From IMG/VR virus record IMGVR_UViG_2690316105_000008: DNA of 5,779 bases; one strand, 5' to 3'. The position numbers were made by a program, and so were the translations under genes. Positions 1 through 1,565 of the stretch are shown here, in pieces (position 1 is the stretch's first letter; every line of letters starts with the position of its first letter). Source of the stretch: a virus. Lineage: Duplodnaviria > Heunggongvirae > Uroviricota > Caudoviricetes. The notes beneath the pieces are model-generated. The model had not been told where the DNA came from. It saw nothing but the letters and a program-made list of their open reading frames with translations, and ran no database searches.

Positions 1-64
1 TAGTATTAAGACTATCACTTATTTAAGTGATACTGGTTGTCTGGAGATTCAGGGGGCCAGTCTA
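1..64. repeat. Left terminal inverted repeat (64 bp, perfect reverse-complement match to 5716-5779)
   Basis: Base-by-base comparison: reverse complement of 5716-5779 equals 1-64 exactly; the match breaks at position 65 vs 5715. In-frame TAG at 63-65 closes the terminase reading frame. Confidence 0.95.
13..32. repeat. Dyad-symmetric site inside left TIR: TATCACTTA-tt-TAAGTGATA (9-bp arms, 2-bp centre)
   Basis: Positions 13-21 are the reverse complement of 24-32; only the central TT breaks symmetry. Candidate dimeric-protein binding site or hairpin/cruciform; function not determinable from sequence. Confidence 0.7.
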
Positions 65-104
65 GAATGATAAGAACGCCGCCAATAACTCTAAACAAAC
101 ACAA

Positions 105-1565
105 ATGGTGAACGGTACTTTTATCTATTGGTTGAACCTCAACACGCCGGGGAACCTTCGCGGTATCACAACACGCTGTGTTCTGTTAGATGAGGTCAGT
201 AGCTGCGAAATCACTGATGAAGGGAACCCAATCAAACTGGCAGAAGCACGTACCAGTACCTTCGGTAGTGACTCACTGGTGGTTGTATCTTCCACGCCAT
301 TGTATAAAGACGATTTAATCAATGCTGAGTACAACCTCAGTGATAAACGTAGGTACTTTGTTACTCACACATGCGGTCATGAATATACTTTTGAATGGGA
401 ACAAGTAGCGTTTGAATTTAAGCAATTAGAAAATGGTAGATCCATTCCTGATAGTACTACTACTCGTTTGTTATGCCCTCATTGCAATGAGGGAATAGAT
501 GAACATACACGGCATCAGATGGTTGATAATGGTCGATGGATTGCAACTAATCCAGATGGGGAACCGGGTGTAGTAGGGTATCAAATCAGTAGAATGTATT
601 CACCTCTGAATACTATTACTGAAATGGTTTCAAAGTTTGCTGATGCTCTATATAACTTCAATCTTCAAACCTTTTACAATAACGAATTGGGCTTGCCATT
701 CGAAGATGAGTATCAAAAAGAATTAGATATTCTCCAATTAGAATCCCTACGAGAAGATGAATTTAACCTTTATAAAATTCCTGAAAGTACCTTAGCGTTG
801 TGTATTTCAGTTGATCAGCAGGGTGATAGGCTGGAAAGTCTGCTTTTAGGTTTTGATGAAAAGAACATTTATGTACTTGGGCATGAGTTTTTCTACTCCC
901 ACGATTGTACGAAGATTGAAGCCCCAGCTTGGAAGGATTTAGATCAGTTTTGCCGTCAGGATTTCAGTACTGTATCAGGTCGCATAGTACCTACACTGGC
1001 TGTGTTCATTGATGCAGGGAACGGTAACGCTACGGATACTGTGAAAAAATTCACTACACGTTGGAGTAAGTATCATCCGATCAAGGGTAGCAGCTCCACT
1101 ACTGGTGAACTATTCAAGACCAGTACTCAGGCGGGGTACAAACTACAGATCCTAAACGTACATGAACAGAAGAACACGATACGCCGCCTCCTGAACCTGA
1201 TGCTATCCAGTGAGGCAGATAACGCCCCGGTTAAGCTCCGCTTCAGTAGTACCTTACCATCAGATTTCTTTGAGCAACTTTCAGCAGAGGAGTTAAAACC
1301 CGCTGGTGGTAAGTTGGTATGGCGATTAAAGAAAGGTCAAAGAAGAAATGAGGCTTTAGACCTAATCTGTTATGGAATGATCGCCATAGCATATGCCCAA
1401 TCAAAATTAGGTACTCAACCATTCAGGAAGTTACGCGATTATAAAGCACAGGAAACCACTAAATACGAGATAAATAAAGTAGAAGAACCAAAACCAGAAA
1501 CAGTACAAAAACCAAAACGGAATAGACGTACTGGAATGGGATCAAACTGGTTCGGTAAAAGATAA
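105..1565 (+). CDS. terL: Large terminase subunit, lambda gpA family, N-terminally truncated (ATPase Walker A region absent; Walker B, Zn-binding cluster and nuclease domain present)
   Basis: 486-aa ORF with gpA-like motifs as recalled: Walker B-like VLLDE then EITDEGNP (aa 26-37, nt 180-215); Cys/His cluster THTCGHE ... LLCPHCNEG (aa 88-130); nuclease-domain motifs [12 protein letters not shown] (aa 233-244) and [10 protein letters not shown] (aa 298-307); C-terminal RRNEALD (aa 412-418). No P-loop anywhere. The same frame is open and gpA-like (..[11 protein letters not shown]) back to nt 66 with no start codon and no Shine-Dalgarno before ATG 105, so ATG 105 is probably an internal Met of a truncated gene. 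Confidence 0.8.

What the first reader, a model, noticed from the sequence alone, without database searches (positions are those of the whole stretch)
63..215. Terminase gene is cut off by the left repeat: gpA-like frame open to nt 66 with no start, Walker A absent
The ORF frame translates as gpA-like sequence from nt 66 onward but is closed by TAG at 63-65 inside the TIR. The first ATG (105) has no Shine-Dalgarno. By comparison with lambda gpA as recalled (Walker A about 100 residues upstream of the Walker B Glu), roughly 150 N-terminal residues including the P-loop are missing. The encoded protein would keep the nuclease and portal-docking regions but should be ATPase-defective, so this cassette could not package DNA autonomously.
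Basis: partly seen in the sequence, partly recalled or inferred. Interest (0 to 1): 0.7.

Follow-up and report, generated by a model that had tools for sequence, protein, structure and literature searches.

The report
IS2-interrupted prophage terminase gene
The "terminal repeat" that cuts the terminase gene is the tip of the common insertion sequence IS2, which has jumped into a decaying Shigella sonnei prophage at two places; the window is the piece of prophage that a draft assembly left stranded between the two IS2 copies, so this is ordinary gene decay.

Summary
The gpA-like frame opens at nt 66, the first ATG is at 105, and the product lacks the first third of the ATPase domain, including the P-loop. 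The interpretation of a repeat-bounded cassette does not hold. The 64-nt arms are the first 64 nt of the left end (IRL) of IS2, present at both contig edges. In the complete genome of S. sonnei 53G the same junction sits beside a full 1331-bp IS2 flanked by a 5-bp target duplication (GAATG), and the missing 5' part of gpA lies directly on the other side. Deleting IS2 plus one duplicate regenerates, with 0 mismatches in 1899 nt, an intact 632-codon gpA found uninterrupted in another sample. The window encodes residues 134-632 (M147 onward if translation starts at the ATG). The P-loop equivalent (residues 73-80) is upstream of the break and Walker B (LLDE 173-176) is downstream. A second IS2, with duplication TTCTG, interrupts the FII-like head-tail gene at the right edge. 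Other assemblies hold the same segment with IS2 overhangs of 0-217 nt or a whole IS2, so the 64-nt length of the repeat is set by the assembler. The result is an IS-disrupted pseudogene in a degraded prophage, which is already known biology of low interest.

The parts
1..64 (-). First 64 nt of the IS2 left end (IRL side). The IS2 body extends leftwards off the contig.
   Evidence: Identical to the reverse complement of nt 1-64 of the 1331-bp IS2 in S. sonnei 53G. Megablast hits to annotated IS2 in Shigella phage SfX and to IS copies in Stx phages. 87 exact occurrences in IMG/VR contigs.
65..69 (.). GAATG, one copy of the 5-bp target-site duplication of the left IS2
   Evidence: In L089, GAATG flanks both sides of the IS2 (6628-7958).
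66..1565 (+). 3' portion of the gpA-type terminase large subunit gene: codons 134-632 plus stop. It holds the C-terminal two thirds of the ATPase domain and the whole nuclease domain.
   Evidence: Pfam GpA_ATPase profile positions 97-247 and GpA_nuclease 2-285. phrog_15 terminase large subunit, E 2.3e-96. Identical to residues 134-632 of the intact allele.
105..107 (+). First in-frame ATG (M147 of the intact protein), with no Shine-Dalgarno and no promoter-like site upstream
183..194 (+). Walker B LLDE (residues 173-176 of the intact protein; the Glu aligns with lambda gpA E179)
1577..2107 (+). 176-aa head-tail joining protein, in the position that gpW holds in lambda
   Evidence: phrog_5774 'head-tail joining', E 8.7e-11. 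No Pfam hit.
2107..3615 (+). Lambda-family portal protein (502 aa)
   Evidence: Pfam Phage_portal_2, E 3.7e-59
3563..5407 (+). Prohead protease - major capsid protein fusion (614 aa)
   Evidence: Pfam Peptidase_S78 plus Phage_capsid. phrog_617 and phrog_4523.
5421..5715 (+). First 98 codons of a 107-codon FII-like head-tail attachment gene, interrupted by the right IS2. The ORF reads on into IS2 to nt 5765, giving a 114-aa chimera.
   Evidence: Weak Pfam Phage_attach hit, E 3.7e-4, below the gathering score. Lambda FII matches the same family. The uninterrupted 107-aa gene is in L089 13315-13638.
5711..5715 (.). TTCTG, one copy of the 5-bp target-site duplication of the right IS2
   Evidence: In L092, TTCTG lies on both sides of the complete IS2. 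It occurs once in the uninterrupted L089.
5716..5779 (+). First 64 nt of the IS2 left end (IRL side). The IS2 body extends rightwards off the contig.
   Evidence: Identical to IS2 nt 1-64. Continues as a complete IS2 in L092 and L099.

Best explanation
The window is a 5.65-kb piece of a lambda-like head-morphogenesis module (gpA', head-tail joining protein, portal, protease-capsid fusion, FII') from a low-GC, degraded prophage of Shigella sonnei. Two copies of IS2 inserted independently, in opposite orientations and with their left (IRL) ends facing inwards. One sits in codon 134 of the terminase large subunit gene and the other after codon 98 of the FII-like gene. IS2 is multi-copy in these genomes, so short-read assemblers stop a little way inside each copy. 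That leaves the same IS2 tip in inverted orientation at both contig ends, which is the '64-nt TIR'. The IS2 insertion splits the terminase ATPase domain between Walker A and Walker B. The N-terminal 133 codons (with the P-loop) stay on the far side of IS2, and the 3' 499 codons have no start signal of their own. The gene is therefore a pseudogene and the prophage cannot package DNA (inferred). Shown directly: the identity of the arms, both target-site duplications, exact reconstruction of the intact gene, and the variable arm length. Inferred: loss of function, and lack of expression of the 3' fragment.
For: The arms are IS2 nt 1-64. In S. sonnei 53G (HE616528, identified in PMC5447701) the order is gpA N-terminal fragment, then a 1331-bp IS2 encoding HTH_Tnp_1 and rve proteins, then the 486-aa gpA' ORF. 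The IS2 is flanked by GAATG on both sides, and removing IS2 plus one GAATG gives a 1899-nt gene identical (0 mismatches) to the uninterrupted allele in L097. The intact protein matches Pfam GpA_ATPase 14-247 and is collinear with lambda gpA 10-604. In six full-length homologues the P-loop column (SCSQLLKT / GKT / lambda KSARVGYS) lies upstream of the point where the window's product starts. 228 phage records cover at least 80% of the 632-aa protein. The right IS2 is complete, with TSD TTCTG, in L092. The same segment occurs in other assemblies with IS2 overhangs of 0, 32, 41, 46, 55, 86 and 135 nt on the left and 86, 108, 164, 217 or a full 1331 nt on the right. The inner DNA is 38.9% GC and IS2 is 53.2%. 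The truncated 486-aa product is on record in 221 blocks of the assembly collection and the 114-aa FII'-IS2 chimera in 47, of which 44 have contigs of 5-10 kb.
Against: No result contradicts it. The source record of the window itself was not identified, so its origin in S. sonnei is inferred from 100% identity to S. sonnei assemblies. Non-expression of the 3' fragment rests only on the absence of consensus signals and was not measured.
Confidence: 0.96

Rival explanations
1. The unit is a genuine mobile cassette, namely an IS2-based composite transposon or a TIR-bounded element, that carries phage head genes as cargo.
For: A perfect 64-nt inverted repeat at both ends. In a complete genome, two inverted IS2 copies really do bracket the segment (L092).
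Against: Each IS2 has its own 5-bp duplication on its two sides (GAATG/GAATG and TTCTG/TTCTG). This marks two independent in-situ insertions and not the movement of a composite. Strains exist with only the left IS2 (L089, L072, L093-96) or with neither (L097) in the same prophage context. Every context found is the same prophage. The inward-facing ends are both IRL, which is donor-inactive in IS2 transposition (PMC3299598). The 64-nt arm length is assembly-dependent.
Confidence: 0.02
2. The ORF is a naturally short or internally initiated terminase variant (nuclease plus partial ATPase) that is expressed and functional, for example as a nuclease-only protein.
For: A long open frame of 486 codons with an intact nuclease domain and 100% conservation across hundreds of assemblies.
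Against: The sequence is exactly the 3' part of an intact 632-codon gene split by IS2. There is no SD and no promoter-like site upstream. IS2's own promoter at IRL reads into the IS, away from gpA' (PMC3299598). All full-length homologues extend 130-170 residues further N-terminally. The conservation is explained by the clonality of S. sonnei.
Confidence: 0.02
3. The contig is a technical chimera: IS2 from an E. coli cloning host or a contaminant was joined to foreign low-GC phage DNA during library preparation or assembly.
For: The GC contrast of 38.9% against 53.2%. The inner DNA has no near match in 5,426 complete E. coli genomes or in 50,697 phage records.
Against: The same junctions, with target duplications, are present in independent complete chromosomes (HE616528 and the 4.9-Mb contigs of GCA_013838625.2 and GCA_026013135.1) and in hundreds of assemblies.
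Confidence: 0.005

Closest known systems
IS2 (IS3 family) insertion sequence of Escherichia/Shigella
   Same: The arms are identical to nt 1-64 of a 1331-bp IS2. The full copies encode OrfA (HTH_Tnp_1) and OrfB (rve), and both insertions made 5-bp target duplications.
   Different: Only the first 64 nt of each copy are in the window. One base differs from the SfX IS2 record (97-98% identity).
Lambda gpA-type terminase large subunit (Pfam GpA_ATPase + GpA_nuclease)
   Same: The intact allele is collinear with lambda gpA over residues 7-580 and has the same two-domain layout and gene order: Nu1-like, A, head-tail joining, portal.
   Different: Identity to lambda gpA is only 20%. The best sequenced-phage match is 34% (Escherichia phage DCP80). 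The window copy lacks residues 1-133. The clade's P-loop is the deviant SCSQLLKT.
IS-mediated pseudogenisation and contig fragmentation in Shigella genomes
   Same: A gene split by an IS, with its two halves called as separate ORFs, and short-read contigs that end inside IS copies. IS-driven pseudogenisation in Shigella is described in PMC8072062 (abstract).
   Different: No difference of substance. This is one instance of the phenomenon.
Related intact prophage in E. coli ESBLEC_MG48 (NZ_CM132639.1)
   Same: The same gene order: small terminase, 617-aa gpA, about-180-aa protein, portal, protease-capsid fusion, then small head-tail proteins. DNA identity is 75% over gpA and protein identity is 81%.
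   Different: Its gpA is uninterrupted and there is no IS2.

Membership tests
IS2 (IS3 family) | Terminal sequence identical to the IS2 left end (42-bp IRL and adjacent bases) | tested here: met
   Both arms equal nt 1-64 of the IS2 in S. sonnei 53G. Hits to annotated IS2. IRL 42 bp and IRR 41 bp per PMC3299598.
IS2 (IS3 family) | Element of about 1.3 kb encoding OrfA (HTH) and OrfB (DDE/rve) | tested here: met
   Not visible in the window itself. In L089 the same junction continues into a 1331-bp element with HTH_Tnp_1 and rve ORFs.
IS2 (IS3 family) | Short direct target-site duplication (5 bp for IS2, from my own knowledge of the element) | tested here: met
   GAATG on both sides of the left copy. 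TTCTG on both sides of the right copy.
gpA-type terminase large subunit | Complete N-terminal ATPase domain with a Walker A / P-loop | tested here: not met
   The window product covers only profile positions 97-247 of GpA_ATPase and has no P-loop motif. The intact allele covers 14-247, with its P-loop equivalent at 73-80.
gpA-type terminase large subunit | Walker B / catalytic Glu | tested here: met
   LLDE at nt 183-194; D and E are invariant in the 7-sequence alignment.
gpA-type terminase large subunit | C-terminal gpA endonuclease domain | tested here: met
   Pfam GpA_nuclease 2-285 of 294, E 1.7e-40.
Composite transposon / TIR-bounded mobile cassette | A single target duplication at the outer ends only, and occurrence of the unit in different genomic contexts | tested here: not met
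   Each IS2 carries its own duplication. Alleles with one or no IS2 occur in the same context, and no other context was found.
Complete viral genome with inverted terminal repeats | Repeats that are the true physical ends of a self-sufficient genome | tested here: not met
   The arms continue into full IS2 copies and then into further prophage DNA in complete chromosomes, and arm length varies by assembly.

The most novel reading that the evidence does not exclude
The pair of inverted IS2 copies may make the head module an invertible or rearrangement-prone segment that drives structural variation in S. sonnei; one assembly joins the right IS2 to the ilv region. Alternatively, the conserved gpA' fragment (nuclease plus ATPase lid) may be expressed by read-through and interfere with the packaging of incoming related phages.
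Probability: 0.03. Interest if true: 0.3.

Novelty: already known. Interest (0 to 1): 0.06.

Why it matters
It matters mainly as a caution. A perfect inverted terminal repeat on a short contig that carries phage genes can be mistaken for a complete mini-element or an ITR-type viral genome, when it is only the same insertion sequence collapsed at both contig ends. Biologically it is one more example of IS-driven decay of prophages in Shigella sonnei. It opens no new question.

Tried and rejected
1. I first weighed a sequencing adapter, a transposon mosaic end, a hairpin telomere or a de Bruijn-graph foldback as the source of the TIR. The arms matched IS2, so these were dropped.
2. Megablast of the inner 5.65 kb found nothing in phage records beyond the arms. 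In complete E. coli genomes it found only a 75% match over gpA. The collection holds no Shigella, so the exact-protein look-up was what located the source.
3. I looked for the window among the 87 IMG/VR loci that hold the arm. Only L072 carries window 1-5715, and it has no second IS2. The window's own record was not found.
4. A promoter/terminator scan of 1-400 gave no + strand signal, and the count was no higher than in shuffles.
5. The composite-transposon, natural short terminase and cloning-host chimera readings were considered and rejected (see rivals).
6. The large protein-database searches, structure prediction and fold search were not run. The exact reconstruction of the intact gene made them unnecessary.

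Full report
**What is in the window**

The window is 5779 nt and has a perfect 64-nt inverted repeat at its two ends, 1-64 and 5716-5779. Between the arms all long ORFs lie on the + strand:
- a gpA-like ORF (ATG 105 to 1565, with the frame open from nt 66);
- a 176-aa ORF (1577-2107);
- a lambda-family portal gene (2107-3615);
- a prohead protease-major capsid fusion (3563-5407);
- a small ORF (5421-5765) that runs into the right arm.

Pfam assigns GpA_ATPase and GpA_nuclease to the first ORF, Phage_portal_2 to the third, and Peptidase_S78 plus Phage_capsid to the fourth. The last ORF has a weak Phage_attach hit, which is the lambda FII family. PHROGs calls the 176-aa protein 'head-tail joining'.

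**Check of the observation**

The frame is closed by TAG at 63-65 and reads [17 protein letters not shown]... from nt 66. The first in-frame start codon is ATG 105. It has no purine-rich sequence upstream and no promoter-like site on the + strand in 1-400. The GpA_ATPase match covers only profile positions 97-247 of 247, whereas the nuclease domain is complete. No P-loop motif is present. The one correction is that the repeat ends at nt 64, so the TAG straddles the repeat edge.

**What the repeat is**

Megablast of the window against phage records matched only the arms. The matches were to the annotated IS2 in Shigella phage SfX and to IS copies inside Stx phages, at 97-100% identity. The 64-mer occurs exactly in 87 IMG/VR contigs. 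The arms are identical to nt 1-64 of a 1331-bp IS2, that is, its left (IRL) end. The right arm is in the forward orientation and the left arm is reverse-complemented. Two IS2 copies therefore point away from each other, each with its IRL end facing the phage DNA.

**Where the window comes from and where the missing part is**

The exact portal protein is encoded in the complete chromosome HE616528.1 and in hundreds of other assemblies. HE616528.1 is S. sonnei 53G (PMC5447701). In 53G the gene order is as follows:
- a Nu1-like small terminase gene;
- a gpA N-terminal fragment;
- a complete IS2 with HTH_Tnp_1 and rve ORFs on the opposite strand;
- the 486-aa gpA' ORF, followed by the rest of the head and tail genes.

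The IS2 is flanked on both sides by GAATG. Deleting the 1331 bp plus one GAATG regenerates a 1899-nt gene with 0 mismatches to an uninterrupted allele in another sample, L097. The full ORF is 632 codons, and its ATG overlaps the small-terminase gene by 86 nt. It matches GpA_ATPase 14-247 and is collinear with lambda gpA, residues 7-580 against 10-604. The window encodes residues 134-632, and the first ATG is M147.

A 7-sequence alignment included an intact E. coli relative (617 aa) and four sequenced phages. In it the P-loop column lies well upstream of the break: SCSQLLKT at 73-80, GKT in DCP80 and KA2-1, and KSARVGYS at 76-83 in lambda. Walker B, LLDE 173-176, lies just downstream at window nt 183-194. 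228 phage records align over at least 80% of the 632-aa protein.

**The right edge**

In the uninterrupted prophage the small gene is 107 codons (L089 13315-13638). In L092 a complete IS2 sits after codon 98, flanked by TTCTG on both sides. The window's 114-aa ORF is the resulting chimera. It is on record in 47 blocks of the assembly collection, of which 44 have contigs of only 5-10 kb.

**Why the repeat is 64 nt long**

The same segment appears in other assemblies with IS2 overhangs of 0, 32, 41, 46, 55, 86 or 135 nt on the left. On the right the overhang is 86, 108, 164 or 217 nt, or a whole IS2. The arm length is a property of the assembler and not of the biology. The contig is the unique DNA between two copies of a multi-copy repeat.

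**Mechanism**

Two independent IS2 transpositions hit a low-GC prophage: the inner DNA is 38.9% GC and IS2 is 53.2%. Each insertion has its own target duplication. Alleles with none, one or both insertions coexist in the same genomic context, which excludes movement as a composite unit. IRL is also the donor-inactive end of IS2, and IS2's own promoter at IRL reads into the element, away from gpA' (PMC3299598).

The break falls inside the ATPase fold, between Walker A and Walker B, and the 3' piece lacks start signals. The terminase gene is best read as a pseudogene. Loss of packaging ability is inferred and was not measured.

**Comparison and novelty**

This is a member of the gpA terminase family by descent, but the copy in the window fails the complete-ATPase criterion. 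The arms are IS2 by every criterion tested. IS-driven pseudogenisation and IS-limited contigs are well known in Shigella (PMC8072062 abstract). Nothing here is new, and interest is low.

Noticed in passing
window 65-5715: The tetranucleotide GTAC is strongly over-represented. There are 65 sites against about 20 expected from base composition, and 130 against 89.6 (both strands) under a Markov expectation. Most occur as AGTAC/GTACT. The cause could be codon or dipeptide usage or something else; it was not examined.
   Followed up: no
L092 2328-7913 (GCA_026013135.1); same junction in L100 1-1526: In some strains the left IS2 is itself interrupted 45 nt from its IRL tip by a nested insertion of about 5.6 kb that carries IS66-family and IS110-family transposase genes.
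   Followed up: partly
L099 5693-15742 (GCA_001251255.1): Beyond a complete right-hand IS2 the contig continues into pemK, ppiC and the ilv operon instead of the rest of the prophage. This is either an IS2-mediated rearrangement or a misassembly across the repeat.
   Followed up: no
L097 3061-3084 (intact gpA residues 73-80); also L108: This terminase clade has a deviant Walker A, SCSQLLKT, with no glycine before the lysine. Other gpA homologues have GKT, and lambda has KSARVGYS.
   Followed up: partly
L089 14050-16701 and L092 16131-16487: The downstream Peptidase_S74 tail-fibre gene contains internal repeats of about 80% identity and varies in length between strains (883, 808 and 669 aa).
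   Followed up: no
L097 2845-2930: The longest open gpA frame starts at an ATG that overlaps the Nu1-like gene by 86 nt, giving 632 aa. Gene callers chose a later ATG, giving 589 aa or, in 53G, a 104-aa fragment. The homologous sequence (SEW motif) lies upstream of the called start.
   Followed up: partly
window 5490-5530: A 17-nt inverted repeat, 94% complementary with a 7-nt loop, lies inside the FII-like gene (I6). Its significance is unknown.
   Followed up: no
window 3563-3615: The protease-capsid fusion ORF overlaps the 3' end of the portal gene by 53 nt. Other assemblies call it 612 or 608 aa from later starts.
   Followed up: no
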